Source: Chrysochromulina tobinii
Taxonomy: Eukaryota
DNA length: 43,825 nt
Assembly (NCBI GenBank): GCA_001275005.1
Contig: JWZX01002079.1
Span: 1 to 43,825 of the forward strand
Reading direction: 5' to 3'
Shown: one piece after another, positions 5,801-39,590 of the stretch
Numbering within the stretch: position 1 is the stretch's first letter
How the letters are laid out: each line of letters starts with the position of its first letter
Translations under genes and position numbers: made by a program
Notes under the pieces: model-generated
What the model saw: only the letters and a program-made list of their open reading frames with translations
What the model was told of the DNA's origin: nothing
The model's database searches: none

Positions 5801-5899
5801 GGCGTCGGCGGCCGTGTTGACCCATTCCTCCTCAGGGAGGTGCGCGTGCAGCCAAGAGGCGACGTCGGCGGGTTTCGAAGCGGACGTCAGCGCGTCCAT
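2816..5899 (-). CDS. SAM-domain dynamin-like GTPase, SLIP-GC/NUGGC-like (1027 aa)
   Basis: N-terminal SAM-like segment (VASWL...IDGAALLSMS...FGRKRKL). G1 GNTGAGKS, G2 region LPTNGMRACT, G3 DAPG, G4-like TQSD. NUGGC-type motifs WPIVKQV, RAVNDKTAKDLLG and LPVFTVSS. Long C-terminal helical stalk and acidic tail. Confidence 0.88.
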   Translation of the reverse strand: MDALTSASKPADVASWLHAHLPEEEWVNTAADAARESSIDGAALLSMSSDEAASALKVTVFGRKRKLTLLLDKAKSNVTGSSSTGAASSSSAALGSSSSAATSTGSSSASSSADVPSADVLHAAPIDSATCDQALHDEAYALGLCRWAGGALEKLLTKPEHQGWATSEVRASRLRELAALRAQSEELPSVSIVVVGNTGAGKSTLLNAMLGEASILPTNGMRACTACLIEMRYEDSDPVRTPEYRAEIEFLTKEEWDKELSDLLDDLTPNDGPNEGKVSLSVAEDSMAYGSWCKVYAVYGDEFTHSRVRTDRTGPGGRVIYDNPTLESLKAKLRGVRAITHALSTTMHESAKESVAFRRKCERYMDSLKDVHGGSYWPIVKQVRLYSRRWDSLKTGAVLVDAPGVHDDNSARDAVVKRRFKEADAVWIVSNIVRAVNDKTAKDLLGEQFRRQLLMDGQFGSLAFIATQSDVIERAEALRALALPPGTSLRECARARNAYTARRLALDFKAGLREMARDAGEGVAGADRLAAKHSLPVFTVSSVEYQKLRGLRPADGPARVWAELEDTQLPPLIRHVQRQALVRRKALSLRRCEAMRDFALSLLSLLNHEARLPQSVRDAAKAAFDEQAATLSGELEQHTKAAEARIRKAFAEDVAPKLHEGASSAKTAAVETAAKWGISVNEGGLHWATYKATTRRHGVFRINMNEQLVEPIFKAVATQWERSFLTGLSSTLDGLRQSLQGSLGAFHPALLTRLAAARVPDSASSALSGAQTDSLLASLHAKVAEIKTAAQKQQRDLSRSMEPAVQTEMTPGYDDATAEAGTGSHRRRVAKLEAHVERAAPKMFQTATDGVVSKMQALSDGIGQTLRADVVQAARAAMRTAYSPLWDEMEEGTVQARRALVPHVAAALLETKNAVRRLVEGGGAEGGRGDRGGGGDGSGGGGSGGGDGGGGEGAADGAADGDEDEELVDVTEQRRQAKRAKQQQEAIELDDDDEVPIDETLAAVENVPPHASAAGTSGSAVKTESRA

Positions 5900-5953
5900 G
5901 GGTCAGCGCGTCCAAGTTCGCGCCTCTTCGCAAACGCGATCGCCAAGCCCGCC
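5900..5953. promoter_or_regulatory. 54-bp divergent spacer; putative bidirectional promoter or overlapping 5' UTRs
   Basis: CAT at 5897-5899 (minus gene start) and GCCATG with ATG at 5954 (plus gene start, just before the FHA domain). Confidence 0.55.
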
Positions 5954-8900: not shown

Positions 8901-11900
8901 CCTCGAAGCTGCATACCGGCAAGCTCACGTTCGGCGCCGACGCGAACATCCTGACGAGCAGCTACACTCTCCTCGGCCTCATAGATGCCGCCACGGACGC
9001 CTCTGGCAGCTCATCCTACCGCAACCAGCTGACGAGCCTCGTCATCGACGCCAAGCTGCTGAGCGGGAAGCTCGCGTTTGGGGCCGACGTGTACTTGCTC
9101 AGCATCAAGGAGAAGTATGGCACGCTCACTCCGGACGAGCGGTTGGCCCCGTGGTTCCGGCGGCTGCTCGGCGCGGCCATCGAGGAGGCCAACCGGAATG
9201 TGCCCGCGGCACCGGCACCGTTGCCTCTGGAGCCCGCGTCGCTGCCGCCGCTCAAGGGCTACGCCATACAAGTAGAGTTGGGCACTCAGTCATCACTGGG
9301 TTCAGTCATCGCTTGCGGTTGTTCCCCTTGCAAAGCAGCCAAGGACTTTCTCCAAAGCCAAACCGAAATTCAGAAAACCTTCAACGGCGAACGCTGTGTC
9401 CACGGCGGCCACCTGCATACTGTGCTGACCGCGGCTGCCAAACGTCCCAAGGTTCCCGCTGATGCGACCTTTAGAGTGACTGTGAGCAGTAAGGCCACTC
9501 GCGTCAACGGCAAGCTCCATGTCGTCAAGGATGTGCCCGGCGCCAAGTCTGCGGCGGAGCTCCAGGCACGCGCGAGCTCGGATCGTGCGCGCGCGCTGCA
9601 GCGCGCGGAGCAAGTGCGCGCGCGCGACGTGGCCATCGCGAGTCGTGCTGTCGAGCTCACCAAGGTGGCGGCGTTGCAGGAGCTCGAGGAGCGCCTCGTG
9701 CAGCTGCTCGAGGAGCGCACGCGGCACGCGCCCCTCGACGTGGCCGGTTTCGTCAAAATCTGCAGCGCGCTGCGCACGGGCGACGACGACCTCGCCGATG
9801 CGAGCGTGCGCGAGCTCGAGGGCGGCACCGGCGCTGGTGGTGCCACCGGCGCCGGTGGTGCCGGTGGTGCCGGTGGTGGCGGCGGCGCGGAAGCGGCGGC
9901 GGCCTCGGCGGCGGCTCCGGCGAGCGGCTGCACGGCTGCCGACGCCGACATGGACGAAGCCCTGCAGGACAGCGAGTCGATCATAAGGTGGGTCGCCTCC
10001 TTTTTCGCGCCTTCGGAGCGGTCGGCCGTCGCGCAGTCTGTCCGCGAGAATGAGGTCGATGATCTCGAGGTGCTGATGAGCATGAGCCACGCAGACTGTG
10101 CGCAGGTCCTCTTCGGGAAGCGCGCCGCGGCGACGACGGCGGAGGAGGCGCGCGATCCGGAGGAGGCGCGCGAGCGCTTCGTCCCCCTCTTCTGGGAGCG
10201 CTTCGTGGCCGTGCGTCGCCTGTGGCTCGCGCTGCAGCGACGCAAGGCGGCCGCGGAGGCGGCCACGGGCGCTGGTGGTGCGCGAGCGTGGCCAGTGGTG
10301 CCGGTAGGCGTGCCCGAGGTGGTGCAGTGGCTCGAGCAGTGCGGCGAGCATGGTGCGGACAGCATGCGTGATCCGTCGCGTCGACTCAACTTTGATGAGG
10401 CGAAGATGCATGCATTGCATTTGGACGGCGCTGTACTGAGCTCCCTCGCGCACGATGAGTGGATGGCCCTCGCGCAGTCGTCGCTTCTCTCGGCCTCGGC
10501 GTCGCTGGCAGAGGAGCTGTGGACGCGACTGCAGCCGTGCGCGGCACTCTCGAAGGCGATGCCCTCGCGCGTGGTCGACGTTCTGCCTCTGTCGTCGGCC
10601 GAGCCCCTCAAAGTGGTCGTGTGCGGTGGCACGGGCGCCGGTAAGTCGACGCTCATCAACGCGCTGCTCGGGTGCACCATCCTGCCCACCAGCTGCATGC
10701 GTGCCTGCACCGCCGCGGTCATCGAGATGGCGTGGCCCGACGCGCAATGCGCCGCCACGTACGAGGCGCGCGTCGCTCTCTGCAGCGCCGAGGAGTGGCG
10801 CGAAGCACTCATCTCGGCGTGCGCAGCCGCCGTGGCGGCCGGCCGCGGCAAGTCGCCTCAGGTGGGCACGCACCGCGGTGCTGCGGACTGGAGTCGCGTG
10901 ACCTCATTCTACGGCACTGCATCAGTTGAGATCACTGCGGAGGCGCTCGTCGAGCCCGGGGCGTCCGAAGCGCTCGTCGAGACGCTCATGGGCCGCGCAG
11001 CCGCGCGCGGCCTGGGCACACAAGTCGTGCTGCGCGCAAGCGACGAAGTCGAGTTCGCGAAGCTCGTGCAGCCGTACGTGGACTCGTCTGACGAGGCCGA
11101 GAGCGGCGCCCTCTGGCCGCTCGTCCAGAGGGTGACGCTGCTGGGGCCATTCTCGCTGCTGAGTTGCGGGTTGTGTCTGTACGACGTTCCAGGCACGCAC
11201 GACGAGAACGCGGCGCGCGAGCGCGTGATGAAGAGCGTCATCGCGTCGGCGCACACGGTGCTGCTCACCTCCAACATCCGACGCGCGTGCAACGACAAGA
11301 GCGCCAAGGATCTGCTGCCGCTCGCACTGCGCCGCCTCCTCCTCGAGCGCGGCTGGGTTGGCGAGCTCGCCTTCGTCGCGTCGCAGAGCGACGTGTTCAA
11401 CCGCTCGGAGCTCATCGACAACCTGGGGCTGGCTGAGGACGCGAGCGCCCTCGACGCGGCGCTCGCGCGCAACGCGTTCACCAAGCTGGAGCTCACGAAG
11501 GACTTCACCAAGGGCGTGCATCTCGCCGCGCGAGCCGCAGCCAGCGGGGTAGGGGGATTGGGCAGCTCTGCGCACTGGCACAGGGTGCCGTTCAAGCTCC
11601 CCGTCTTCACAGTGAGCGCCGTCGAGCACAGCAAGCTCAATAAGGTGGGCTGCAGCGCAGCCGAGGACGGTGCGCAGGTCTTCACACGCCCAGAGGAGAC
11701 GGAGCTTCCGGCACTTCTATGCTTCCTTCGGTACGCCGCGCTCGCGCATCATCGGCGCGCGGCGGAGGCGGCGGAGGCGATGCGGGCGACGACTACAGAG
11801 TGTGGCGGTGTAGGGATCCCCGTGCTTGACAACGGCTTCCCTAAGGTACCTACGGTGGGCGACAAGGTCGTCGTGCTCTCGGCCTCGCGCTCATCCGCCT

Positions 11901-13252
11901 TGTTCTGGGCCTTGGCCTCGGACTCTTCCTCAATCGTGTCCAATTACTTACTATCTTACCAAGCGTGTGTGGGCCAGGAGGGCGTGGTCCTCTCAGACAG
12001 CGTCGAGAGCGGAAGCGTCTTCCCCCCTTACAAAGTGGGCTTCCCCGACGGCAAGCATTGGTGGTTCTCAAAGGAGGAGCTCCAGCTCAAGCAGACGAGT
12101 CCGCAAGCTGATCCGCAGCTTGCGGGCAGCGGTGGCGCCGGCGCTTCTGAGCATCGAAGGCCAATTGGAGCGACGCTGCTCGAATGCATCTCGTCATCTT
12201 CGCAGGCTGGTGCCGCGAATGCGGCCGACGCAAGCGGCGGCGGGGACGAGGTTGGTAGCAGCGGCCATGGTGGCGATCAGCCTGCGCCCGCGTCCGCGCC
12301 CGCCGCGCCCGCTGCGACGAGATTCGGGACGAATAATCCGTTTGATCAGCCGTTCGCGACGGCGCAGGATGCAGCCCCCTCGGATGTTCGCGTCATGATG
12401 TCGCAATTGTACTTCGGCAAATTCGACGCCGGTGCGGCTATGGTCACATTCGACCCCAACCAAATCAGGCTAGACATCGGCCTTGACAACGGTCTCGTGT
12501 ATCTCAACGTCTCAAAGTTGAGCGAGTTCGAGGTCGACAAGGAGCTCGGTACGCTGTGCATGTGGGGCTTTTGGGGAGATGATTGCAGATCCCTGACTGG
12601 GAAGCTCAAAGACGCCTACCAACCCTTACCAGCTTCAAGATACGTTCCAGAGTCGTCCATCTTCATGCAGTACGATAAGGGACAGTTCCCTCGCGCAGGC
12701 TGGCCTTCGGAAATACTGAAGCTCAACTCGAAGTTTGGGGACGTCATCAAGTTCACCAGTGGTCACAAGGGCCGTGAGAATCGGATGTGGTACACGTCAG
12801 CACCAGGAACAGCACCACCTGCTAGCGCAGGTTCGTCAGGCTCGTCAGGCTCGTCAGGCACAGCCCCATCCGCAAGCGCATCAAGTGTCTCGCGCGCCTC
12901 ACACACGGAGCTCGTGCGCGCGGTAAACTTACGCAAGGCCGCCGGGCTGATGCAGAAGCAGCTTGCAGCCGCCGTAGGGACGTCTGATGCAATTCTCTCG
13001 TGTTGGATGCACGGGAAGCTGCAGCCAATTACTGAGGGCATCGTGGATGCCAAAGTCGCAGGCTTTCTTGCCGTCGCAGCGGGAGCTGCAGCCGCAGCGG
13101 GAGCCGTCGCAGCCGCAGCGTCCGCAGCGTCCGCAGCTCAAGAACTCAAGAACTTGAAGCGCCCAGCGCCAGCACTACCGGCTGCGCCCCGAAAGAAGGC
13201 CAAGGCAACGCCCAAGCCAGAGGATGTGGTCATCGACTTGGACTCGGACTGA
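5954..13252 (+). CDS. FHA / coiled-coil / acidic / SAM-like / SLIP-GC-type dynamin-like GTPase / SH3-like barrel / XRE-like HTH mosaic protein (~2432 aa)
   Basis: FHA motifs (TIGR...SRQHA...DLSLNG...LREGSTIIFG). D/E tracts, GKG repeats, a CxCxxC...H segment and SAM-like segments. GTPase motifs GGTGAGKS, LPTSCMRACT, DVPG and SQSD. HTH-like LRKAAGLMQKQLAAAVGTSDAILSCWMHGK. C-terminal KRP...RKKAK and VVIDLDSD. One uninterrupted ORF; in-frame introns are not excluded. Confidence 0.82.
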   Translation: MQSCFLELFNPSAAKPGLPAVIVIPANGEVTIGREGTAVLDPGFGAHAEEWKKALLSRQHARLTNFGTPQITDLSLNGCEVDGASLAKNVPTELREGSTIIFGTRGPPKKPEYVEALAKRSWIHSHCKYVFHIGPPPPSHEAPPAAAAAASTPLPSTQASNSQRDAEEVAECERDRQPFVSPQTAFAGAAATPSVPPATMPAEEAEMHTEQVMDVDADDAAADAAADAAADMALGDSPEARALAVACGLRVSVAAHASAEELEAAVNAVGRGLKTLEVELSAEKAAAAEELSSLNKALEAASQEAARRGTSTGEARARWRATVGASLLRGAHEPAVEASLRVARDVQQAACTLLAVRSDTLLALHQARLAQLQKRVGALLYADRRLEERAHDDYSERLESGVSAFQETLEKPDDFDCDECRYERRNYGYRGRFSGRYYDDDDDDDDDYDDDNDCDCWMASNSYACVDELITTATTILGEIKMAFHDGEDEEDEDEEDEEDEEDEEGEEDEEGEGGEEGEGEEEDERSVARKQAKQARRATRMADRPLRAAIRLFIFTAGLDEAIREVSSELEDSSSLRTKSRFCVVIKALGELWSEVVLELPREPRVYLRPWFSHIPVAGSSEGRGGGGKGAGKGGFGKGAGKGAGKGGVGKGAGKGGGKGGGKGGGTGGVSDDGGALGKGGRLSGGLPEPLSDALAACSSEIEECLRVADHSGSTSQAPVGAKSITKLEGLFKEQLVPQVRLPWRHPEFRRILDGVPADGDALNEPRAASKARLLKLKQLAAAADESEREQYFVQMGHLADHLGMAHEAAEAFFARGAPQSAMMRLASATGSFASWSKKGSSPVTLALRTADFRSLAPLAPALPELLVKMTPSETVLQDAVVAGLGSASLLAPGGVRKTSPAELVQILGLCLRSPALQLTPAAVEQCLMAIASKPELFPRLTDALETWRITGSRAASDGKWMAPLGPHRWAAIILAAIRALASKLHTGKLTFGADANILTSSYTLLGLIDAATDASGSSSYRNQLTSLVIDAKLLSGKLAFGADVYLLSIKEKYGTLTPDERLAPWFRRLLGAAIEEANRNVPAAPAPLPLEPASLPPLKGYAIQVELGTQSSLGSVIACGCSPCKAAKDFLQSQTEIQKTFNGERCVHGGHLHTVLTAAAKRPKVPADATFRVTVSSKATRVNGKLHVVKDVPGAKSAAELQARASSDRARALQRAEQVRARDVAIASRAVELTKVAALQELEERLVQLLEERTRHAPLDVAGFVKICSALRTGDDDLADASVRELEGGTGAGGATGAGGAGGAGGGGGAEAAAASAAAPASGCTAADADMDEALQDSESIIRWVASFFAPSERSAVAQSVRENEVDDLEVLMSMSHADCAQVLFGKRAAATTAEEARDPEEARERFVPLFWERFVAVRRLWLALQRRKAAAEAATGAGGARAWPVVPVGVPEVVQWLEQCGEHGADSMRDPSRRLNFDEAKMHALHLDGAVLSSLAHDEWMALAQSSLLSASASLAEELWTRLQPCAALSKAMPSRVVDVLPLSSAEPLKVVVCGGTGAGKSTLINALLGCTILPTSCMRACTAAVIEMAWPDAQCAATYEARVALCSAEEWREALISACAAAVAAGRGKSPQVGTHRGAADWSRVTSFYGTASVEITAEALVEPGASEALVETLMGRAAARGLGTQVVLRASDEVEFAKLVQPYVDSSDEAESGALWPLVQRVTLLGPFSLLSCGLCLYDVPGTHDENAARERVMKSVIASAHTVLLTSNIRRACNDKSAKDLLPLALRRLLLERGWVGELAFVASQSDVFNRSELIDNLGLAEDASALDAALARNAFTKLELTKDFTKGVHLAARAAASGVGGLGSSAHWHRVPFKLPVFTVSAVEHSKLNKVGCSAAEDGAQVFTRPEETELPALLCFLRYAALAHHRRAAEAAEAMRATTTECGGVGIPVLDNGFPKVPTVGDKVVVLSASRSSALFWALASDSSSIVSNYLLSYQACVGQEGVVLSDSVESGSVFPPYKVGFPDGKHWWFSKEELQLKQTSPQADPQLAGSGGAGASEHRRPIGATLLECISSSSQAGAANAADASGGGDEVGSSGHGGDQPAPASAPAAPAATRFGTNNPFDQPFATAQDAAPSDVRVMMSQLYFGKFDAGAAMVTFDPNQIRLDIGLDNGLVYLNVSKLSEFEVDKELGTLCMWGFWGDDCRSLTGKLKDAYQPLPASRYVPESSIFMQYDKGQFPRAGWPSEILKLNSKFGDVIKFTSGHKGRENRMWYTSAPGTAPPASAGSSGSSGSSGTAPSASASSVSRASHTELVRAVNLRKAAGLMQKQLAAAVGTSDAILSCWMHGKLQPITEGIVDAKVAGFLAVAAGAAAAAGAVAAAASAASAAQELKNLKRPAPALPAAPRKKAKATPKPEDVVIDLDSD
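7829..7960 (+). repeat. Coding Gly/Lys repeat (GKGA/GKGG)n
   Basis: Repeated GGCAAAGGTGCC / GGCAAGGGCGGC units. Confidence 0.85.
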
Positions 13253-13485
13253 GCGACCCCTCTCGCCCACTGTACAGCCCAACAAAGCCCGGTGCAGTGT
13301 CTGCGCAGCGTTCGGTCGGGTCCGAGGTTGAGACGCGAGAGCAGTGACCAAATTAGAATTAAACTGAGAAGGATACCGTACACACAAAAAGTGATAAGGA
13401 GAGGCAGGCCGAGTAGACAGGCGAAGGCGGCGCTGGGCGGGAGCCGGGGCGTGGCGAGCCGGGAGGCCCAACGATTGTGCGAAGA

Positions 13486-14703
13486 CTACCGCCGGCTCCT
13501 CTCGAGCGCTTCCCTTCCCTTTGCCAGCGCCAGCTCGCCCAGCTCGCCCAGCTTACTCATCAACAGCTCGCCCGCTCGCTGCGCCGCCTCTTTGACGCGT
13601 TGCACACGCTTATAGGCGGCCACGCACTCACTTACGTCACCGTCGCCGCCGATCACGTCGCCGCGGACGAAGGCCACAATGGCCGCAGCGGTGACGGCGG
13701 GCTGCTCGAGATGCGGCGTGTGTCCGCTCGTCTCGACCCACCGGAACGGCGCGCGTGCTGGATCCGCTTCACTAAGCGCCTCGATGAGCTGCGGCACTGC
13801 GCCACTCGGCGGGATGACTGCATCCTGACGCCCCCAAAGGGTCAAGCAGGGTCGCTCGGTCAGGCGCGGCACGTCGGCTGCGATGCCGCCGTACGCGCCA
13901 CCGAGCAGCCAGACGAGCGAGTCCGCCTCCCATTGAGGCCGGCGCAGGTGCAAATTCCCGACACGGATGGCATCCGCGCTCTGGTTCTCCTTGACGCAGT
14001 ACGCCTGCTTCGCGATCGACTCGCGCACCTCGGGTGCACTGAGCACCTTTTGGAGCAGCAGCCGACCGACGGGCGCGGGCACCGCGGGCGGTGCGTCGGT
14101 GAAGAAGCCCGGGTCTAGGTTGACAAACCCGGCAAATGCCGCCGGCTTCGCCTTGTAGCAATCGAGCGCGATGCATGCTCCGAGCGACGCACCTATCCAA
14201 ATAGCCGGGCGACCACCGAGCACGCGCTCGTGGAAGGCAAGCAGCGCGGCGCGCTTGCCCTCAACGCCGACCGTCTTCAGATTGGTCGTGTCGGTGAAGC
14301 CCCAGCCTGGTATGCACGGCGCGTACGCCTCAAGGCCTGCCGCTTCGAGGTATGGCAACAGCCTGCGATACTCGAGCGACGAGATGTCGAAGCCGTGCAG
14401 AAGCAGCAGGGGCGGCTCATCGCCGGTGGCCCTTGCAGTAGTGCAGAGGTAGCTCATTTCAACGGGACCCTTGGCGACAGCCATGTCCGGCAGCACGCTT
14501 GCCGTCCGCAGCGACGCGATCGCAGCGACGGCAGCCTCCTCGGTGATTGCGTCGATGTCCACTTGCGGCACATAGGCCGGCAGGGCCATTTTGTTAGGCT
14601 GGCAGCGTCGACATGTAGGCTGCACGCGCGCTGCCGCGCTCAGTTGGCTCTGAAAGACCGTGCCGACAAAGACCGTGCCGACAAAGATCGTGCCGACCAC
14701 CAT
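13486..14703 (-). CDS. Alpha/beta-fold hydrolase, possibly with an N-terminal targeting extension
   Basis: LLLHGF oxyanion motif, GASLG nucleophile elbow, WGRQD acid, GHTPH catalytic His. The N-terminus has a 15-bp tandem repeat (VGTIF/VGTVF x3). An alternative start at MALPAY is possible. Confidence 0.9.
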   Translation of the reverse strand: MVVGTIFVGTVFVGTVFQSQLSAAARVQPTCRRCQPNKMALPAYVPQVDIDAITEEAAVAAIASLRTASVLPDMAVAKGPVEMSYLCTTARATGDEPPLLLLHGFDISSLEYRRLLPYLEAAGLEAYAPCIPGWGFTDTTNLKTVGVEGKRAALLAFHERVLGGRPAIWIGASLGACIALDCYKAKPAAFAGFVNLDPGFFTDAPPAVPAPVGRLLLQKVLSAPEVRESIAKQAYCVKENQSADAIRVGNLHLRRPQWEADSLVWLLGGAYGGIAADVPRLTERPCLTLWGRQDAVIPPSGAVPQLIEALSEADPARAPFRWVETSGHTPHLEQPAVTAAAIVAFVRGDVIGGDGDVSECVAAYKRVQRVKEAAQRAGELLMSKLGELGELALAKGREALERSRR

Positions 14704-15055
14704 GCGACGAGATCACAATCTCCTTTAAGTCTTTGGGCTTTTTTGTTTACAGCGAAACAAGACACAGTGAAGACCTGCAACCAAATCTCAGACACGCTCT
14801 GGGGAGCGTTAAGCGGGTAAAGGTTAGAGCAACCGGTGATCTCATGTGATCTGCGAAGGTCTTTTGAAAAGGCTCTACACAGCTGTGTTCTGTGTTAACC
14901 CTCTGTTTTCATACAGTAGACAGTAGTGTCTCGAAGGACGGTGTGTCTCGTCTCGCCATACACGACGCCATCCATCGCATACACGACGCCATACACTACT
15001 GTCCATCTAAACCTCCTCGAAGGACGGCTCTGCCACCCTCGGTCAACATAAGTAC

Positions 15056-15688
15056 TTACTGAGGCCGCTGTCGTTTGCTGGGCGGCAGCCCGCCGCTGCT
15101 CCCAAAGTCCGCGCCGGCACCAGCTCCCATCGGTGTCGCGCGTCCGCCGATTCCGCGCTTGGCAGGGGCGGCCGCCTCGGTCGCGTCCATCGCGCCATCA
15201 CCACCGTTCGCAGCCGCTCGAGCAGCCTCAAACGCCTCGCTCAAGTACCAGCCCAGCCGTCGGAGGCGCGCCTGCACGACTGCCCAGAGCGTGGGCGCCT
15301 CATACACGACGCCATCCATGACGTAATAGTAGCGCAGCGTCGTCTCCGCTCCGCTCGGCGCGCGGCGGAGCTTGCGGATCACGTAGAGCGAGTGCGCAGC
15401 TGGGTCAGAGGCCGTAGGCGGCAACTCTTCGAGCCGCGTCTCGTCGAGCTCGAACACGATTCCCGGCAGCCTGGCGAGCTGCTCGCGCGCCACCTCCGGA
15501 GGCAGCCTCGCAGTGCTGCCTTGCATGCGAAGCTGCGCATTGACCGAGGCGCGGTCGAAGAACTGCGAGTTCGCAAAGTAGTCGAGTACGCTGCCGCGGT
15601 TGAGCGCGCCGTTCCACCAGCTGCGGTCCTCCCATGAGACTGTGGTGAGCACGTCGAAGGTGTCGGCCGGGGTCGCAGGGGCGGACAT
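15056..15688 (-). CDS. MED6: Mediator complex subunit 6
   Basis: VSWEDRSWW, VLDYFANSQFFDRASVNAQLRMQ, LYVIRK and YYVMDGVVYEAPTLWAVVQARL match the Med6 pattern. Confidence 0.9.
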   Translation of the reverse strand: MSAPATPADTFDVLTTVSWEDRSWWNGALNRGSVLDYFANSQFFDRASVNAQLRMQGSTARLPPEVAREQLARLPGIVFELDETRLEELPPTASDPAAHSLYVIRKLRRAPSGAETTLRYYYVMDGVVYEAPTLWAVVQARLRRLGWYLSEAFEAARAAANGGDGAMDATEAAAPAKRGIGGRATPMGAGAGADFGSSGGLPPSKRQRPQ

Positions 15689-16018
15689 TCACTGCAGACG
15701 TTCACCTGTATTCACAGCAGAGAAGCTCTGAAATACAACATGTACCCTTTCCGACGTACGGGCGAGTTTTCTCATTCCTGCTTCTCTCTTCCTGCGAAAT
15801 GGGCTGGTTCACATAAGGGAATCCCACGTTTAGAAAAGTTGTTGTCACTCAACTTCGATCGGACAACCTTATGTTGCAGAACACCCAGATAAAATCAGGG
15901 TGTGTTGTATTTAGGAGAAGTGTGAATTAACAGGTCTGCAAGTTTTGACCCCCAACTCCTGCGACAATTACTGCTTTTGCGGCCAGGCACGAAAGACGTA
16001 CTTGGCAGGTCTGCCACA

Positions 16019-19000
16019 ATGCCTCCCCAAAAGACGCCGCGAGCGCTGTCGCCTGCTAGCAAGAGCGGCGGCCTAACACCTCGCAGCGGTGCGAGCAGCG
16101 GCGGCCTAACACCTCGCGGCGGTGCGAGCTCACCACGTGGCCCGCCGCCGGCTGGTTCGGCGTGCAAATCGGCGCGTGGCTCCTCACCAGCCAAGAACGG
16201 CAGCAGCAGCAATGGCAGCAGCACGGCCCGTGGGCCGTCGCAGGCGGCCGACATTTTCGGCGGCGGCAGCAGGCAGCCCGTGCTCAAGGGCCGCACGGCT
16301 GCTGTGCCATCGCCGACCCTTGCAGACGGCAGCAGCAGCGGCGGCGGCGGCGCATCCACCGCGCGCGTGAGGATAGATCCTGTGGCACGCGAGCGTATGA
16401 TAGATCCTTCGGGAGAAGGCGGCGGAGGCGGGTCGTCGTCGTCGGACGCCGCGGCTACTGGGGCCGACCCGAGCAGCGGGCGTGGTCCCCTGTCGGGCCA
16501 GCGACCTGGGCTGCCCGAGCTCGAGCTGCCGCGGCCGATGGTCGCGGCGAAGGCGCTGGTCGTGCGTACGGGCTTCGAGCTCTCGACGCCTAAGCTGGCC
16601 GAGATGGCGGCGGGCACGCCGGTCGAACTGCTCGAGATGCGCCAGCTGCCCGACTACACGGCGCGCGCGCTCATCGCGATCCGCAACGGCCCGCGAGGCT
16701 GGGTCTCGATGTGGTCTCCCAAGGACCGAATCATGCAACTCGTCGAGCTGAGCGGCGGCGGTTTGACCTCCGGCCGGCAGGGCAGCGGGCGCGAGGGCGC
16801 CGCCAACGGCGGCGCGGCACCCAACTCGGGAGGCCGCGAGAATGCATCTCCGGGGCGGCCTGGTGCGAAGGGCGGCCTGGCTGGCGGTGCTCATGGCGGC
16901 GCATCCAAAGGGGAGCCTTCGACGGTGGCGGGGCCGGCGGCCCCGCGCATGCCAACGTACATGATCTCATCGCCCAAGCCACTGCTCGCGCGCACCGAGT
17001 TCGACTTGCAATCCGGCCGCGTGGGAGACCTCGAGCCGGGTACGCGAGTCCACGTACTCGAGTCGCGCCCTCTGCCGGACGGCGGCAGGCGCGTGAGGCT
17101 CTCTCTGGAGGTGAACCCGAGCGTCACGTACGGCTGGGTGACCGCGATCACGAAGAGCGGGCAGGAGAACCTCGCGCCGTATCTCTTCGAGGTGATGACC
17201 CCCAAGCCGCTGCTCGTGCGAAAGGAGTTTGACCTCAAGTCCGAGAAATTGGGCGAGATTGCGCCCGGGACGCTCGTCTTTGTACTCGAGGTACGCGCGG
17301 CGAGCGACGGGTCGCAGCGCACGCACTTTGCGTTCGCGACGGCGTCGGGCGGCATGAGCGCGGGCGGCTGGGTGACCTCGGTGACGAAGGATGGCGCGGA
17401 GAATCTGGCCGTCGCCGCGCGTGGCAAGGCGGCCCTGCGGTCGGCCGCCGGAGGGTCTGCCGCCGCGTCGGGCGTCGATGCGAGCAGTATACAAAAGATC
17501 ATGGACAGTGCGAAGGCGGGTGGGAAGGCCGAGATGGCGGCAGCGGCGGCGATGCTGCTCGCCAAGGTGGCGAGCAAGGGGGCGAAGAAGCCATCCGACG
17601 ATGACGCGAGCGCAGCCGGCGCGGCCGCCGCTCTCGAGGAGGGGAAGAGGCCGACGACGCCGCGGGCGGCGAAGAAGCCCTCGGAGGAGGGGAAGAAGCC
17701 CACGACGCCGCGGGCGGACGGCGGCGGCGGCACGACGCCACGGGCCAGCGGTAGCACCACACCTAAATCTGGCAAGGGCGTCGCACAGCAAGCGCAGGGG
17801 TTGAGCGGTGCCGAGAAGCAGAAGATGGAGGAGGCGGCGCTTCAGGCGAAACGAGAAGAGGTGAAGCGCGCGGTCGCGGATGCAGCCAACGCGCTCGCAA
17901 AGCTCGTCTCCAAAAAGCCTTTTGAGGAGAAGGAGTTTACGTACAAGCGCTTGGAGGCCCACCGGCCCAGTGGCAAGGCGGAGGAGATGCCCTCACGACA
18001 TACTGCCGTGCCGAGCTGCGGGCTGGTGCTCATGTTCAACTGCTACCGTGCGTCCTTCGAGCTGCTGCAGGGCGACCTGTCCTCCCTGCCCGAATCGGAG
18101 GCGCTCGACCTTCGCTCGCTCACCTCGGGGGCCTCCCTCGGCCGGTGCAAGATCGCGCCCGAAAAGGGAACCCCTTTCGTCGACCGCATCGAGTTCCCGA
18201 ATGAGTGGAAGACGGGTGACGAACACGGCCTCGAGCACAATGGGCTTCAAGGGGACGGCTGCCTGCTGGTGAAGATCGAATGGAAGGAGCCCAAAAGCGA
18301 GACCCAATTAGTGCCGCACGCCGCGCTCATCAAGTGCAATCCATGGCTCGCCTATGGGTGTGCCGAGGGAGCGCGCGTGATGATCCGAAAAGCTACTGAT
18401 ACGCAGGGAAAGTGTGCGACGGTGCAGCGCACGCTGCGCGACGATTCGGTCGTCGTGCGCGTGGATGGCACGATCGGCGAGTCGACAGTCGACCCGATGC
18501 CGCTGACGGTCGTGCGCACCTCCAACCCTCGGCACGAGCCAGGGACGCGCCTGCTCTATCTGCACGACGTGAACCTCGTCGATGCGGTCGTGGAGCACTG
18601 GCCCGAGAAGACGATCGACGTCAAGGAGGGCTCCCGCCATAAGCTGCAGGTCCAAGGCGTGGCCAAAACCGGCTGGGTCACGGCTGCCTCCTCCGCGGGT
18701 GAGGAGTTCCTCAAGGGGCCGGAGGACGGCACGCTGACGGCCGATGGCACCCCTCTGCCCGACGATGGCTCGGTCATGCAGGTCAAGGGGAGCAAGGCGC
18801 TCAAGGTGAACGCTGAATGTGGAGAGAGCGCTGAGAAAGCGGCGAAGGCGGCGCAGACGGCGCAGCTCGCGCCACGTTCCTTTGTGCACGTGCACGAGAC
18901 GAAGACACTCGAAGACGGCACCAAACGCTGCTGCATCTCGACGATCGCCGAGCAGGGCACAGTGCTCACCGCGGCTCTCAACGAGTTCAACCACGCGATG

Positions 19001-33254: not shown

Positions 33255-33848
33255 GCTCTGCTCCAAGGCACAAACCTGTTCGTCCCTCATCAGCCTCTGC
33301 AATCAGCCTCTACAATCTGCAGAAATCTCCTGTGTTCCCAGTTCGCATCCGTTTGACTTCTGCTGGAAAAATGCATGCTTGCCACAACTAATGTGGATCA
33401 CAACGGTTACATGTAGCACGATGCGAGGCAAACAATTGGCAAACAAAAAGTGAATATAAATAGATGCCTTCATGCGGGGCAAACCACCCCTGGCGTCCGC
33501 CACCTCTCAACAGCCCGCCTCTCGCCCGCCTCTCGCTGATAGTGTTTTAGTGAGTGTTAGCTCTCGCCTGCTCCCGGGGCCTGCTCCCGGGGCCTGCTCC
33601 CGACCAACAAACGACCAAGCCCGAGCCTTACTCCACTCTGTCTGTGATGGGGTCTCTGTGATGTGCCGCAGACACGATTCGCGCACGACGTGAAGCGCGC
33701 GACCGACAGCCACCAGATTATCAATTCATCAATGAAGGGTCGAATAGGGGTTGAAGGCACCCAAGCGTGCAAAACTAGTCGCTGTGAATTTCACAACAGA
33801 GGGTTTTTTGGAGAGACGTCCCAGCGTATGCTCTTACCGGGCCGACGA

Positions 33849-34859
33849 ATGGAGACGGTAGTGGGCTCCCGGCCGCGTTTCATTGAGAGTGCGCTATCGT
33901 CCGGAGTGCACGCCACGGCATTCTACCGCCGGATGCCGGAACTGGAAGGGTTGGTGACCTCGGACGTCGCAGAGCCGCACCTACACTGGAGCGCGCCGAC
34001 GGTCGGCGAGTGGCTTGCCAGTCTGGGGCTTGCCTTGTACTCGCAAAAGTTTGTGGAGCACGAGGTCACGGGCGACCTGCTCGAGGTCATGGACAAGGAA
34101 GATCTGCGCGACCTCGGCGTGACCCTCGTTGGCCACCGCCTGAAGCTCCTGCGCGCGGTGGCGGCGCTGCAGCAGAAGTCTGAGAGCGAATCGCGCAGCA
34201 AGATGCTGTGGCAAGCCGATGAGGTACTTCATCGCGACGGCCCGCTGGGCTGGTTGAGTTTTTATCTCAGCTGCAAGTCTTGCGTGAAGGGCACCAGCAA
34301 GTACAAGCTCACTGGCAGGGCAATGGTGCTCGCGCGCGCGCGCACGGCCCTCCTCGCACGCCTTGCCTTTGGCTGCCGCGCTGTGCCCGTTGCTCCCGCG
34401 GCACGTCGCCACCTCCGAACCGCTCACCCATCGCGTGCCGCGCGCGTTCCACGTCCGCCTCTCCAGGAAATTCTATCTCGCGAGGACCGCAACCTGTGCT
34501 CGTTCTCCGAGCCGAGCACCACCACGCGCAGCATCGAACTCGGCAACGTCGTCGGCGTCAGGTACCAGCATCGCTCGGCGCCATGCGACTGCTGCTGCGG
34601 CTGCACCGCCGACGACGTGTTCGTTGAGCTGAACCACGAGATCGGGCTGCCGCCTGTCGCGCCCTTGGCCGTGCGCAGCGGCTCGGGGGAGCAGGTCGCG
34701 CATTTGATCCAGGGAGCCATGGAGGCCGCACATGGCCTTCATGGCCTCCATGGGGGCACGAGTGCGCAGGCGGCGCATGGCTCGCCGGTGCCGCAAGCGA
34801 TGGTGCGCTCCGCCTCGAATGTCGATCTACGCCGACAAGCAGCCGCCTTACGAGCGTAG
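33849..34859 (+). CDS. SAM domain + bacterial-PH-like domain protein; probable intron 34326-34466; start uncertain (33849 or 33933)
   Basis: Canonical SAM (WSAPTVGEWLASLGLALYSQKFVEHEVTGDLLEVMDKEDLRDLGVTLVGHRLKLLRAV). Removing ATG|GTGCTC...CTCTCCAG|GAA gives YKLTGRAM|EILSR...TRSIELGNVVGV, a PH-like pattern. Confidence 0.78.
   Translation: METVVGSRPRFIESALSSGVHATAFYRRMPELEGLVTSDVAEPHLHWSAPTVGEWLASLGLALYSQKFVEHEVTGDLLEVMDKEDLRDLGVTLVGHRLKLLRAVAALQQKSESESRSKMLWQADEVLHRDGPLGWLSFYLSCKSCVKGTSKYKLTGRAMVLARARTALLARLAFGCRAVPVAPAARRHLRTAHPSRAARVPRPPLQEILSREDRNLCSFSEPSTTTRSIELGNVVGVRYQHRSAPCDCCCGCTADDVFVELNHEIGLPPVAPLAVRSGSGEQVAHLIQGAMEAAHGLHGLHGGTSAQAAHGSPVPQAMVRSASNVDLRRQAAALRA
34326..34466 (+). other. 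Probable in-frame spliceosomal intron (141 nt)
   Basis: GT...CCGCCTCTCCAG boundaries; (CG)n low-complexity interior that translates to a non-domain-like peptide. Confidence 0.6.
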
Positions 34860-35243
34860 AGAATAGCGGAGCCAGAGCGGAGGCCGGAGCGCGGGCGGCT
34901 CGTGGGGGGGGGCGGCACGGTCAGGTGGGAGAAACCGGCCCCAAATGTCTGATACAGTCTCCCCGAGGGAGTCAAAGTGTGGGCGACCAAGGTACCGTTC
35001 GAGGCTCCTCTTCCGATGCTATCCTAGGTCGCGGGCGAAGTGTAGGGACCTGGCGTCCCGACTACTCGACTCTGGTGGTGGCACCGCGTGGAGGGCATGG
35101 TGCTCGACTCTGGTTGTGGCCCGCGTGGATGGAGAGGAGGGGGGCGCCGACGTACTAGTAACCACTATTTTCAGAGTTTCCGCTGTCTGAGGTGACTGAA
35201 TTGGTGACTGCTAATCTGACTGATCACAGTTCCCGCGCTCCCA

Positions 35244-38184
35244 ATGGTCTCGACGGCCGTGACTAGGGGGGCGCCGTCACGCCCGCGAACGGGCTGGCGC
35301 AGCAACGAAGAGCTCGAGGCGCAAAATCGTGCGCTCCGTGAGGGTTTGGAGGCGGTGAGCGCCAGCCGCAGGGAACTCGAGGAACGGCACAATTTGCTCG
35401 CCAAGCACCTTGAGTCGGCATCTGAGAGCTTCGCGGAGAGCTATCGGGTGATGCGTGACAGACAGGCACTCCTTCACGCACAGGTCAGCTCGGGGAAGAA
35501 CATCGCGCGCACAAACGAGGAGCTCGAGGCGCAAGTCGCTCAGCTCTCGTTCGAGCTCAGCCAAGTGACGCTCCAGGTCGCCGATCGTGAGCAGCACACG
35601 GTGTTGCGAGATGCAAAGGTTCTCGAGGAAAAGCGCCTGGCGCAGGAGGCCATCAAGCTGGCCAGCACCGAGCGCCACGCCTACCTTCGCGATCTCGACG
35701 TCCTCACGCGCCGCGTCGACCAGCTCCGACGACGACTCGCGCGGTCTCAGTGGCACTCCCTCGGGAATGCGCTCCAGCTCTCGCGCAGTCGGCGGTTCCT
35801 CGCCACCGAGGCGACGCGCCGCGCGCTGCAGCAAGCCCTGCATCGTGCGCAGACGCCCTCGGCGGTGCGCACCGCGGTCGAGCATCCTGTTTACCTAGCC
35901 AAGTGGGGGGTCCCGAAGGCGAGCGTCGCCTCCGCGAGTGTGACCTCCGACGGCGGCGCCCAGTGGTCCTTAGAGCTGTGGCTGCGCGAAGTGCCTCTCG
36001 TGCAGCTGCTCAGCACGGCGCTGCGCCGGCGGCTCGGCGACGCTCAGCCGGCGAACGAGCGAGGCTTCCTGACGGCTCTCGTGGGCGACGGACTGGAGGC
36101 AGAGAGCGAGCGAGCCGCAGAGCTGCTCGAGGTGGTGCTGGCAGAGGGCGGCGTGCTCGCCGACCTGGCGCGCGCCATCGCCGACCAAGCGGCGGAGCTC
36201 GTCCGCCAGAAGCGCCGCGCCGCACGCGGCCCTGCCACCACGCGCGCCGCGCCGAGCGCCTCCGCAGATGGCCCATCGAACATCTCTTCCGGCGAGGCGG
36301 CGCCCGGGACGTCGAGAATGTCGTCCGGTGAGGCGGTGCTGGGGCGGGCCGCCCGCGCCGTCCCGGGCGTCGCCTCGTGCGCGCCCGAGTGCCTCCCTTC
36401 GGATCCCTCAATCGGTAAGTTTGTCGATGCGGGACCGGCGGCGGCGGCAGGCTTCACGATGCATCTGGGCACGATGCGCGACTTCGTCGGCGGCCTTTCA
36501 GCCCGAATCGGTGACGCGGCGGTCGCCCAAGACGATCCCTTCGACCCTCGCCAATCCGACATCTACACCGCGGTGCTCTCGGCCATGAGCGAGGAGCACC
36601 GTCGGCGTGCCGACTCGCGCGAGTGGTTCGTCGTGGGCAACTACGGCACACGTACCTACTCGGAGGCCGAGTTCCTCTTTGTCGTCGACCCTCCTGTCGT
36701 GGGACTCGCGACCCTTGATCTGCCCAGCTGGCCGCTCGAGAGCCCCTACCTCGTCCAGGCGGGCGGCGCCGCCCCGCGACAGCCACGCCCGCTCTCCGAC
36801 TTCGAGGCCGAGCGCCGCCGACTCGCTGAACGGCTGCGCGCTGTCGCGGGCATCGAGGGGCGCCCTTCACACGTCGACGTCCTCTGCGGCCGGCTGTACA
36901 CGGGCCCGCTCTTCGTCAAGTACAATGCCGTCCTCCGGGGCGCCTCGGCCGACGCACCGCCCTATCTGCGCCGTCGCGTGCACGAACTCTGCCTTGGTAA
37001 CCAGTACACGACCACGCTGCACGCGCTCAACAGCACCCTGCTTGTGCTCTCCCACCTGACGGCGGTGCGGGCCGTGTACCGCGTCGTGTCGGGCGCCGCG
37101 CTGCCCGACGCCCTTCGCGTGCCCGACGAGCTCGGCTGCGTCGGCGGCGTCGAGCTCGGCTTCCTGTCCACCACCGAGAATCGAGAGCTCGCTCTTGAGA
37201 CCGCGGCACGGGACGGCGGTGTGTTGCTCGAGCTCTCGATGAGCCCGTCTCTGATGACCCCGCCTCTGATGGCCTCTGATGATCTCTGATTACCTCTGAT
37301 TACCTCCCTCATCAGGTGTGGTGCTCGAGCTCTCGATGAGCCCGACGGCGCGGGGTGCGTCCCTCGTGTGGCTCTCTCAGTACCCTCACGAACGCGAGGT
37401 CGCCTTCCCGCCCCTCGCGTTCCTCACGCCGGCCGGCACGCGCTGCGTGGGCGCAGTCACAATATGCGAGCTGCGCCCTACGCTCTCCATCGCCGCGTAC
37501 TGGGAGGTGCTCCGCCACCATGCGGGAGCCGTGCCGCAACCGAGCGCCGCTGCCGTCGCTGCCGTCCCAGCCATCGCTGCGGCCGGGGAAGCTCACACGT
37601 CGGTGGTCGACGCATTCAGCGCCACCCCCAGCAAGCCGCGCGTGCGATTCCAACACGGAGGTGTGAAGGACGGTGGTGTGAAGGAGCCATCGGAGGAGGC
37701 GCGAGAGCCATCGAATACTCCCTCGGGCTCGGTCATGGCGCGCACCGAGGTCGCAGCTGTGAAGACGACGGTTACGCCCACGGGCTCGCACGCCACGCAA
37801 ACCTCGCCGCCGGGCGCGGTCGCCGCCGACCTCTCGCTACTACACCGCGCGCCACCCAGCACTGTGAGCGCACCACAGGCGCAGAGCGCCGTCTCCTCTC
37901 GACATCGCGCGGCCCTCGTCTCGCAAGCGATCCAATTCGCTCTGGATGAGAGCATGCGGCTCGAGACTCTGTCCGCAGCGCTGCGCGAGCGATCGCCCGA
38001 TAGGACGCGAGCGCTCCTCGAGCCGCCGCCGCCGCAGAGCACCCTGGCAGCGCTACTGGCAGGGAAGAGGACGGGCGATGGCTCTCTGGCTCAGCGCCTC
38101 GTGCCGCCAAGTGCGTCCGTCGCGCCCCACAGGATCTCGTGGTCCGGGTTCGGGGTCCGTTCCCTTTGGCCTGAGTCGGCGTGA
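35244..38184 (+). CDS. Coiled-coil + R-S-E-type ADP-ribosyltransferase domain protein (~947 aa); exons 35244-37218, 37316-38184
   Basis: Heptad-rich N-terminus. RLYTGPLFVKYNAVLRG, NQYTTTLHALNS, VYR and GGVELGFLSTT; after splicing, RGASLVWLSQYPHEREVAFPP (ExE). Confidence 0.85.
37219..37315 (+). mobile_element. Intron (97 nt) of the introner-like CCTCCCTCATCAG family
   Basis: 30-nt direct repeat with 1 mismatch (37218-37247 and 37315-37344). Interior CTCTGATGGC CTCTGATGAT CTCTGATTAC CTCTGATTAC CTCCCTCATCAG. Removal reunites the ART STT and ExE motifs. Confidence 0.7.
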
Positions 38185-38555
38185 ACCGTGATGGCATCGC
38201 TCATGGGTGTCGCTGACTCGGTACTGAAGACCGACGTGTATCGTGTAATAATAAATAACGGGACGAACGAGTACTCTTGGCGACTCTTATCTCAATCTCT
38301 GCCTTTCGGACGAGGGTGAAGCCGTGAACCGTCGCGTCTCGGCACACGGCGCCGCACGTGCCGCCGCGGTGCGGCGGCTCAACGCTCTCCTCGCGCATCG
38401 AGGATCGACTCTCCTCTGAACTGCTGGTCACGCTGGCCGTCTCGCTCTGCGTCGCGCGGTCTGATGGTGACGCACCGTGACGCACCACGACCAGCCGACG
38501 CTCCCTTGCGTTTGGCACACGCAGTCTGCACGCAGCTATGCAGTCTACACGCAAT

Positions 38556-39590
38556 CTACAACAAGCCCGTCACGGGCGAGGGCAGCTCGGGCAGCAAGCT
38601 TGTGTTCGTCTTTTGGAGCAGCTGCGCGAGGCGCCGCTGCGACGGCGCGTAGTACGCGCGCACCCTCACCATGGCTGCCTCGAGCGCGGCGGTAGCGCTC
38701 ACGACAGCGCGGGTGTCCCCGGCGGCCCATGGTGAGGGTGCGCGCTTGCGCTCGTAGTCGCTCTTGGAGCGCCCGACGACATACAAGCCAGCCTCATTGC
38801 GCGTGGCCACGGTGCGGTACGGGTGGTGCGCCAGCCCCGCAAAGCGCTCCACCGCATGCATGCATGCAAATGGGTCGGCCTTGAACTGCTCAAGCCAAAG
38901 GACGCCCACATGCGGCCATACAAACACATCGAGCCAGCGGCGCATGAAGGTTGAGTAGTGGCCCATCAAGAAGAGTCGGCGCAGGTGCGGCGAGCGCTGC
39001 ATCTGGCGGCGCGACGTGTGCAGCGGCGCGGCGTCGCTGCTGTTGCCGCCGCCGCCGACAAGCACGCGCTCAACCACCTGTGCAAACGGGGCTTTGCACC
39101 ACCTGCCCTCCTGCTCTCGCTGACACATGTCGTACGCGGAGTGCGCGCGTGCGGCCGGCTCGCGTAGCATGATGAGCACGCGCGCCGCCGGGATTGCGCA
39201 CGCCACTTGGCGAGGCTGCGCGCGGTCAAAGTAGGCCGGCGTCTTCTCAAACAGCAAGCGGCCGCGTACATCAGCCTCACGTAGGCGCTGCCGCTTCCAC
39301 AGGAAGCGCGCGTAACGCAGACGCAGATGCCCGCGCCACTGGGCGTTGCAAGACGGCGTGCGTTCCTGGTCGTCAAAAAAGTGCACCTCACCGCCGTGCA
39401 CCTTGACCGCTGGATGGACGCCCAGCCAGGTCTGCAGCTCACCCGTGCCCGCCTTCTGCACGCCGACGTTGACCAGACCGGGCAGACAGCACACGGTCGA
39501 CGCTTCGCCGATGAAGCAGTCGCCTGCGTCGGCAGTCTTCGCCGCTTCAACCGTGGCCGGAAGCGGGTCGCCGGAAGCGATGCGCGCCAT
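38556..39590 (-). CDS. PAPS-dependent sulfotransferase (heparan-sulfate 3-O/N-sulfotransferase-like)
   Basis: 5'-PSB GVQKAGT, EVHFFD, EKTPAYF and 3'-PB MLREPAARAHSAY. Confidence 0.85.
   Translation of the reverse strand: MARIASGDPLPATVEAAKTADAGDCFIGEASTVCCLPGLVNVGVQKAGTGELQTWLGVHPAVKVHGGEVHFFDDQERTPSCNAQWRGHLRLRYARFLWKRQRLREADVRGRLLFEKTPAYFDRAQPRQVACAIPAARVLIMLREPAARAHSAYDMCQREQEGRWCKAPFAQVVERVLVGGGGNSSDAAPLHTSRRQMQRSPHLRRLFLMGHYSTFMRRWLDVFVWPHVGVLWLEQFKADPFACMHAVERFAGLAHHPYRTVATRNEAGLYVVGRSKSDYERKRAPSPWAAGDTRAVVSATAALEAAMVRVRAYYAPSQRRLAQLLQKTNTSLLPELPSPVTGLL

What the first reader, a model, noticed from the sequence alone, without database searches (positions are those of the whole stretch)
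37218..37344. Third family member splits an ART active site and has the longest duplication (30 nt)
Seen: GGTGTG(T/G)TGCTCGAGCTCTCGATGAGCCCG flanks the most regular decamer array (CTCTGATGGC, CTCTGATGAT, CTCTGATTAC x2), 16 kb from the other two members and in another gene. It lies between the ART STT and ExE motifs, so unspliced RNA would stop at 37289 and lack the catalytic Glu. Inference: this is a young, independent insertion showing the family is dispersed rather than locally duplicated. Inefficient splicing could throttle a potentially toxic enzyme.
Basis: partly seen in the sequence, partly recalled or inferred. Interest (0 to 1): 0.7.

Follow-up and report, generated by a model that had tools for sequence, protein, structure and literature searches.

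The report
Introns born by long exon duplication
In a freshwater haptophyte alga, this 97-base insertion is one of many dispersed, likely spliced introns in which a ready-made intron end sits behind a 9-45-base copy of the gene's own sequence, which points to a likely undescribed way of making new introns; nothing here shows that it throttles the enzyme gene it sits in.

Summary
In detail: 37218-37247 and 37315-37344 match at 29 of 30 bases around a decamer array, between the STT and ExE motifs of an ADP-ribosyltransferase-like gene. The unit 37219-37315 is a predicted GT-AG intron. No spliced RNA contig was found, so splicing is inferred. It belongs to a dispersed family in a Chrysochromulina tobinii/parva-like alga. 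Of 113 non-redundant acceptor sites from metagenomes, 98 are followed by GT/GC and 63 carry an upstream copy of the exon start (control 0.24%). The copies are 9-45 nt long and supply the donor. A second, unrelated 3' module shows the same layout (7 of 10 sites). The copy/array junction is rich in microhomology, and a FabF site has empty and filled alleles. 'Young' is only relative: 28 of 28 orthologue read-throughs carry it, including a lineage at 93% identity. A 29-30 nt copy is not exceptional (13 of 60 are as long), and throttling has no support. Best mechanism, inferred: target-primed reverse transcription of intron 3'-end RNA. It differs from the introners I read about (fixed 3-9 nt duplications).

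The parts
35244..37218 (+). Exon 1 of an ART-domain gene (coiled-coil-like N-terminus, then the ART half with the VYR and FLSTT motifs); phase-1 boundary
   Evidence: ORF list; translation; aligns to 15 of 15 ART paralogues
37219..37315 (+). Predicted 97-nt GT-AG spliceosomal intron (the inserted unit)
   Evidence: Boundaries and open frame to 38184; splicing not observed
37218..37247 (+). 5' copy of the duplication; its GT at 37219 is the predicted donor (GCG|GTGTGT)
37248..37303 (+). Degenerate decamer array (CTCTGATNNC units, each with a CTGAT branch-point-like word - inferred)
37304..37315 (+). Constant family end CTCCCTCATCAG: pyrimidine tract plus acceptor
37315..37344 (+). 3' copy of the duplication, the start of exon 2
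37316..38184 (+). Exon 2, with the ExE motif (QYPHERE) and a low-complexity tail; kept open, with ExE, in the 93% lineage
20386..20458 (+). Family member (module 1), 73 nt, 12-nt copy with GT in the 5' copy and GC in the exon
21001..21084 (+). Family member (module 1), 84 nt, exact 19-nt copy
19727..19823 (+). Intron with the second, unrelated 3' module and an exact 10-nt copy of the exon start

Best explanation
37219-37315 is a predicted spliceosomal intron, likely created when a ready-made intron 3' end (branch-like decamers, pyrimidine tract, CAG) was copied in from elsewhere at a staggered cut, duplicating 29-30 bases of exon whose first GT would serve as the donor, so that splicing would restore the original message exactly. 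Shown: the layout exon / copy / module / same copy / exon, its recurrence at dozens of unrelated sites with two unrelated modules, and empty and filled alleles at one site. Inferred: splicing. Inferred and least certain: the copying step. I think it most likely is target-primed reverse transcription of RNA that ends at the intron's CAG, primed at the AG|GT side and resolved at a variable point in the array by microhomology. Units that start with a donor-like GY and reach about 55-100 nt would be spliced and kept. The host enzyme gene is most likely an incidental target.
For: Family layout: 63 of 113 non-redundant acceptor sites have an upstream copy of the exon start at score 10 or more, against 0.24% when exon starts are swapped between sites; 98 of 113 acceptors are followed by GT/GC against a background GY frequency of 0.18; those starts are donor-like (+3R and +5G: 53% vs 14%). 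Copies are 9-45 nt, median 20.5 (n=60), about 96% identical (n=68). One end is constant and the other variable, with microhomology of 3 nt or more at the copy/array junction in 14 of 35 scorable sites against 6.9% expected. A second module shows the same layout at 7 of 10 sites. New position and origin in trans: at FabF (L061) 9 of 28 proteins covering the site are uninterrupted, one of them on contigs up to 30 kb, and 19 carry units (1, 2 or 3 where countable), at 98-100% identity to each other; 9 of 9 further homologues printed (P0054-P0062) are uninterrupted. 46 of 60 sites were not flagged as lying behind an older array intron. Intron behaviour: Pfam profiles continue across the unit (Vps52_C 220|222, RhoGAP 74|77); the ART halves meet within 1-4 residues in 15 of 15 paralogues; exon 2 stays open with ExE in the 93% lineage (51 of 56 identical in the ART part); three such units separate four stop-free exons of one gene at 15977-29004.
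Against: No spliced joint at this site in 4 RNA runs or at the three other window introns in 4 runs. Two X12 contigs run 12 and 24 nt into the intron, too little to count as bridging, and may be DNA. No full-length spliced product at high identity appeared among 7992 candidates scored. No reverse transcriptase or autonomous partner was found; no genome was held. No polyA tail, and no shared longer 5' body in the part that was shown. 5' copies are not measurably better donors than the exon copies (7 better, 5 worse). The search pattern required an intact acceptor, and the main test was anchored at it, so elements ending elsewhere are under-counted (7 of 45 remaining sites had an offset repeat). 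G, AG or CAG before the donor is expected from donor consensus alone. The same junction marks fit DNA-templated repair.
Confidence: 0.55

Rival explanations
1. Same product, DNA route: at a staggered double-strand break, the 3' end copies part of another family intron by microhomology-mediated template switching (polymerase-theta-type or break-induced synthesis) and returns at AG|GY, duplicating the exon segment. No RNA or reverse transcriptase is needed.
For: Microhomology at the copy/array junction; the FabF target ends in an 11-of-12 look-alike of the module end and hybrid unit ends exist; works for any module; staggered-break repair gives 4-12 bp repeats at new Daphnia introns (PMC4202315, passages).
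Against: Most duplications start exactly at the base after CAG: only 5 of 68 scored better with an offset, 4 of them at stacked loci; a DNA switch has no obvious reason to stop there except selection. Repeats are longer than in Daphnia and the insert is a shared family sequence.
Confidence: 0.25
2. Local remodelling of old introns: a tandem duplication across an existing acceptor followed by loss of the upstream intron, or an aborted cDNA-mediated intron loss that overwrote the intron's 5' part with the exon start.
For: 8 of 60 sites sit directly behind a family-type acceptor, 4 with an identical last 22 nt; unit number differs between strains (L011 two, L070 one); copy length and module length are anticorrelated (rho -0.72, n=45).
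Against: FabF has empty alleles and uninterrupted homologues; ART paralogues are uninterrupted; L079 and L093 carry a module unlike the intron end in front of it (14 and 5 mismatches in 22 nt) although their duplications differ at 0-1 positions. This route likely explains stacks, not first insertions.
Confidence: 0.1
3. One reading: the intron is poorly spliced and is kept because it limits a potentially toxic ADP-ribosyltransferase.
For: Retention would stop translation at 37289, before ExE; the exon start is itself a donor-like decoy; the few RNA contigs near the site are unspliced-looking.
Against: Donor of middling family rank; same units in housekeeping genes; 72% of the coding length lies before the last ExE residue; no measure of retention; no evidence of toxicity (no PDB match for the upstream half).
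Confidence: 0.05
4. The insertion is not spliced and has inactivated the gene.
For: No spliced contig or protein seen.
Against: Exon 2 remains an open 283-291 residue frame with ExE in a lineage 7% diverged; canonical GT-AG ends give an exact fit to paralogues.
Confidence: 0.05

Closest known systems
Introners that carry the 3' splice site and take the donor from the target-site duplication (Symbiodinium, Polarella classes 4/5 and 6/8/10; PMC9860276 Fig. 2B legend and bioRxiv 10.1101/2020.10.14.339549, passages read)
   Same: The element brings the acceptor, the duplication brings the GY donor, and splicing restores the message without change; dispersed; inside genes.
   Different: Those have fixed 4- or 8-nt duplications, with terminal inverted repeats described for Symbiodinium. 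Here duplications are 9-45 nt and vary per site, there is no inverted repeat evident, the 5' end of the module varies, and copies are not alike end to end.
Chrysochromulina sp. Tara MAG introners (PMC9860276 Fig. 2C legend and supplementary Table 5 rows)
   Same: Same genus label; introner activity in genes; no terminal inverted repeats.
   Different: The figured family has a 4-bp duplication, carries the 5' site and co-opts the 3' site, the reverse of this. I did not see the sequences or Table 6 rows of the other Chrysochromulina families, so overlap with one of them is not excluded.
Non-LTR-retrotransposon-derived introners (about 5% of classified families; PMC12130899 section 6) and target-primed reverse transcription in general (junction hallmarks recalled, not from a call)
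   Same: Variable-length duplication, one constant end, one variable end with microhomology.
   Different: No homology to a known element shown, no polyA tail, no coding partner found; modules are only about 25-100 nt and look like intron 3' ends.
Daphnia new introns from staggered-break repair (PMC4202315, passages)
   Same: A direct repeat of the adjacent exon at the far end of the new intron.
   Different: 4-12 bp repeats and inserts mostly of unknown source there; 9-45 nt repeats and shared family modules here.
R-S-E type ADP-ribosyltransferase domain family of haptophytes (paralogues labelled PF01129/PF03496)
   Same: VYR, STT and ExE motifs present across the two exons; 29-42% identity to 15 paralogues.
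   Different: The window halves alone hit no Pfam family and the upstream half no PDB chain; activity and substrate untested.

Membership tests
Spliceosomal (U2-type) intron | GT/GC..AG ends whose removal restores a conserved reading frame | tested here: met
   family level
Spliceosomal (U2-type) intron | Junction seen in RNA | tested here: inconclusive
Introner (intron-creating mobile element, broad sense) | Many related copies at unrelated genic sites | tested here: met
Introner (intron-creating mobile element, broad sense) | Presence/absence among close relatives, absent in outgroups | tested here: met
   At FabF 9 uninterrupted vs 19 filled of 28; not at the ART site, where 28 of 28 are filled
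Introner (intron-creating mobile element, broad sense) | Similarity running from near the donor to the acceptor (end-to-end rule as in bioRxiv 2020.10.14.339549 methods) | tested here: not met
   The 5' 9-45 nt of each intron is locus-specific; sharing is confined to the 3' module
MITE-like (DNA transposon) introner | Fixed short duplication of 3-9 nt | tested here: not met
   9-45 nt, median 20.5
MITE-like (DNA transposon) introner | Terminal inverted repeats | tested here: inconclusive
   None evident by eye in the aligned units; no dedicated test was run
Non-LTR retro-element (target-primed insertion) | Variable-length duplication with one variable end and junction microhomology | tested here: met
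Non-LTR retro-element (target-primed insertion) | PolyA or short-repeat tail at the 3' terminus | tested here: inconclusive
   No polyA; the decamer array is a 3' tail only if the element is read antisense to the gene, which the data do not decide
Non-LTR retro-element (target-primed insertion) | Autonomous partner encoding reverse transcriptase and sharing the end | not testable with these tools
   No genome or parent records held; none in viral contigs by pattern (0 matches)
Known structured RNA family | Rfam match | tested here: not met
   0 matches at E up to 1 in 37000-37600

The most novel reading that the evidence does not exclude
In this alga the 3' ends of spliced-out introns are themselves the mobile RNA: a reverse transcriptase copies them from their CAG end into donor-like AG|GY sites in exons, the long duplication supplies the new donor, and each new intron becomes a template in turn. 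That would be a self-propagating, RNA-based route to intron gain that needs no transposon body, works for unrelated intron sequences, and is invisible to end-to-end introner searches.
Probability: 0.3. Interest if true: 0.85.

Novelty: new variant of a known kind. Interest (0 to 1): 0.6.

Why it matters
How new introns arise is a long-standing question, and RNA-based routes have little direct evidence. Here a culturable alga carries many introns with a consistent insertion footprint (long variable duplication, constant acceptor end, microhomology), in two unrelated sequence types, with empty and filled alleles among close relatives. That makes the route testable by population genomics and RNA-seq. 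Because each intron's 5' part is locus-specific, pipelines that need end-to-end similarity would likely miss them. The footprint also confuses gene models: one C. parva FabF model reads through two in-frame units. The ART location itself adds little.

Tried and rejected
RNA evidence: contigs of X12, X14, X15, X17 on 33500-38400 and X14, X16, X12, X13 on 13200-27400 gave no joint matching any predicted intron; the one joint (20457 to 21052, 20 letters on the short side) links two arrays and is treated as an artefact; holes in cover prove nothing, and both piece tables were cut. Whole genome and parent records: not held, so no census of orientation or intergenic copies and no search for a reverse transcriptase. 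Viral contigs: 0 matches. Donor improvement in the 5' copy: 7 better, 5 worse by family matrix, 1 better and 3 worse by GTRAGT match; rejected as evidence. Longer shared 5' body among elements: none in the shown part, apart from the second module. Empty alleles among six groups of overlapping loci: none; only array length and unit number differ. Pfam contiguity: 46 phase-consistent pairs from 32 loci, hits on both sides in only 4 loci, clean contiguity in 2. Rfam and PDB blank. My first microhomology null ignored chance extension of the copy; the corrected expectation is the one used. The length anticorrelation is partly built in, because introns over 140 nt were dropped and the two lengths sum to the intron. 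In one search the 20.4-kb donor was entered as 20389 instead of 20386 (same phase), so its donor score there is void while the frame check stands. Assembly artefact rejected: the unit is seen in 28 protein read-throughs from other assemblies.

Full report
Observation. The repeat is real: 37218-37247 and 37315-37344 match at 29 of 30 bases. The ORF from 35244 stops at 37289 inside the array. FLSTT precedes the site and QYPHERE follows it. Taking 37219-37315 (97 nt, GT..AG) as an intron gives a 947-codon frame ending at 38184 (lengths only). The two halves, aligned separately, meet within 1-4 residues in 15 of 15 paralogous ART proteins, none of which is interrupted there. Two other members end at 20458 and 21084.

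Organism. A FabF exon from a family locus is 99% identical to Chrysochromulina tobinii KOO20908.1, and its cluster holds a C. parva model. The ART paralogues include Prymnesium parvum and C. tobinii proteins. The window is therefore assigned, by inference, to a C. tobinii/parva-like haptophyte. No whole genome was held.

The family. From these, 177 acceptor matches collapsed to 123 clusters, and 10 whose downstream sequence was itself array were dropped, leaving 113. 98 of 113 are followed by GT or GC, against a background frequency of 0.18, and these starts are donor-like (+3 purine and +5 G in 53% vs 14%). 63 of 113 have an upstream copy of the exon start at score 10 or more; with exon starts swapped between sites the rate is 0.24%. 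Among 68 sites at score 9 or more, the 5' copy starts with GT in 42 and GC in 18, and copies are 96% identical, 28 perfectly. After dropping 8 sites where the copy runs into the array or the module is under 25 nt, lengths are 9-45 nt, median 20.5, and 13 of 60 reach 29 nt. So the finding's duplication is long but ordinary for the family.

A second module. An unrelated, non-repetitive 3' end (a GCTCAC word, a pyrimidine tract and CCACAG) occurs at 10 sites in the same loci and window; 7 of 10 have the same kind of copy, 9-35 nt, including window 19727-19823. The process is thus not tied to one sequence.

Junctions. At 35 of 60 sites the module starts in array register; there the copy's last bases match the expected array bases for 2 or more nt in 18 and 3 or more nt in 14, against 19% and 6.9% expected after correcting for chance extension (p about 3e-8 for the latter). 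Copy length and module length are anticorrelated (rho -0.72, n=45), which fits a preferred total intron size but is partly built in by my 140-nt cap. Only 5 of 68 sites scored better with the copy offset from the CAG, and 7 of the 45 sites without an anchored copy had an offset repeat.

Gain, not only remodelling. At a FabF site (L061), 28 of 30 cluster members examined cover the position: 9 are uninterrupted (one gene model and 8 metagenome or Logan calls, one of them on 29 contigs up to 30 kb) and 19 carry units; one, two and three units are all seen; the 14 members compared are 98-100% identical upstream. Short-contig members could be spliced RNA; that metagenome gene callers do not splice is my assumption. 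Nine more distant homologues are uninterrupted, and three keep the exonic HHQ whose codons in L061 resemble the module end. Stacked units occur: 8 of 60 sites follow a family-type acceptor directly, and L011 has two units where L070 has one, as unequal crossing-over between the copies would give. But 46 of 60 sites were not flagged as stacked, and L079 and L093 carry a module unlike the intron end before it.

Are they spliced? Indirectly yes: Pfam profiles continue across the unit in Vps52_C (220|222) and RhoGAP (74|77); 4 of 32 loci had hits on both sides. Three units separate four stop-free exons at 15977-29004. No full-length spliced product appeared in the protein search.

Dispersed family: supported. 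Young: all 28 of 34 orthologous proteins examined that cover the site read into the copy and array, 6 from a lineage at 93% identity; these are the listed part of three clusters (15 of 37, 15 of 57, 4 of 4). The insertion looks fixed. In that lineage exon 2 is still open with ExE (51 of 56 identical in the ART part), which suggests a working spliced product. Throttle: the donor ranks above 32 of 54 family donors, the units are common in housekeeping genes, and 72% of the coding length lies before the last ExE residue. I give throttling 0.05.

Mechanism. Shown: layout, recurrence, two modules, microhomology, empty and filled alleles. Inferred: splicing; insertion at a staggered cut. I commit, at 0.55 for the whole account, to target-primed reverse transcription of RNA ending at the intron's CAG, because both unrelated modules end exactly there while their other end varies (hallmarks recalled, not from a call). 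DNA-templated repair is the main rival (0.25). An antisense template with the array as its tail cannot be excluded. No enzyme was found.

Literature. PMC9860276 (passages; supplement searches showing Table 5 and Table 1 rows, and part 4 of 400 with Micromonas rows only): introner duplications of 3-9 bp; the figured Chrysochromulina family has 4 bp and the opposite polarity; C. tobinii and C. parva appear in the table of genomes screened, and the words 'tobin' and 'parva' did not hit the introner tables in the held, cut file; 'CCTCATCAG' had 0 hits. PMC12130899 (passages and section 6): about 5% non-LTR introners, about 72% unclassified, Chrysochromulina not in the main text; datasets not read. 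bioRxiv 2020.10.14.339549 (passages): fixed 3-8 nt duplications in the classes shown. PMC4202315 (passages): 4-12 bp. PMC11282704 (passages), PMC11782384 (abstract only: repeats of 4-30 bp near intron borders in general), bioRxiv 2024.03.26.586863 (passages: lariat-tail chemistry and intron transposition as a hypothesis), PMC4580454 (passages: no description of such introns). That Emiliania introns are rich in 10-11 bp tandem repeats is recalled from its 2013 genome paper, which was not held. Nine searches listed no paper describing this layout, judged from listings; subscription papers and unseen supplements could. An earlier AI note from this scan (e1-2577349) describes the same family in this genome; I saw it after my own family analysis, and it is not independent support.

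Verdict. A real, predicted intron of a dispersed introner-like family with unusually long, variable duplications. New variant of a known kind; interest 0.6 for the family, little for the ART context.

Noticed in passing
window 19727-19823 (+): Intron-like unit with a second, unrelated 3' module and an exact 10-nt copy of the exon start; the same layout at 6 further sites in the loci.
   Followed up: yes
window 15977-29004 (+): Four stop-free exons in phase form one gene of about 4,250 codons with NACHT-like, LRR, Roc and COR hits.
   Followed up: partly
window 29019-29092 (+): Exact 17-nt repeat starting AG|GC at both copies, 74 nt apart, just after the stop at 29004, with neither module between them.
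   Followed up: no
window 33281-33330 (+): One-mismatch copy of the family end without an upstream decamer array, followed by 13-nt repeats.
   Followed up: no
window 2816-5899 (-) and 5840-13252 (+): Two dynamin-like GTPase genes on opposite strands that share DNA similarity.
   Followed up: no
L061 (FabF site): The 42-nt unit is in frame and stop-free, so one or two units can read through as 14 or 28 extra residues (P0193, P0198, P0174, and the C. parva model P0176); the exon end mimics the module end at 11 of 12 bases.
   Followed up: partly
L009 about 250-450 (+): Inside an AAA-protease intron the duplicated segment includes 6 bases of the upstream exon end as well as the downstream exon start, like a copy of the spliced junction or a second insertion with a 6-nt duplication.
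   Followed up: no
L019, L080, L099, L073: Tandem runs of the whole 22-nt terminal module, up to about ten copies.
   Followed up: no
window 36308: An 18-nt in-frame insertion in RNA-run contigs X12 and X17, a strain variant in the ART gene linker.
   Followed up: no
window 27494-27619 and 38467-38560: A 30-nt tandem repeat inside the long ORF, and 10-11-nt degenerate arrays near the end of the minus-strand sulfotransferase-like ORF.
   Followed up: no
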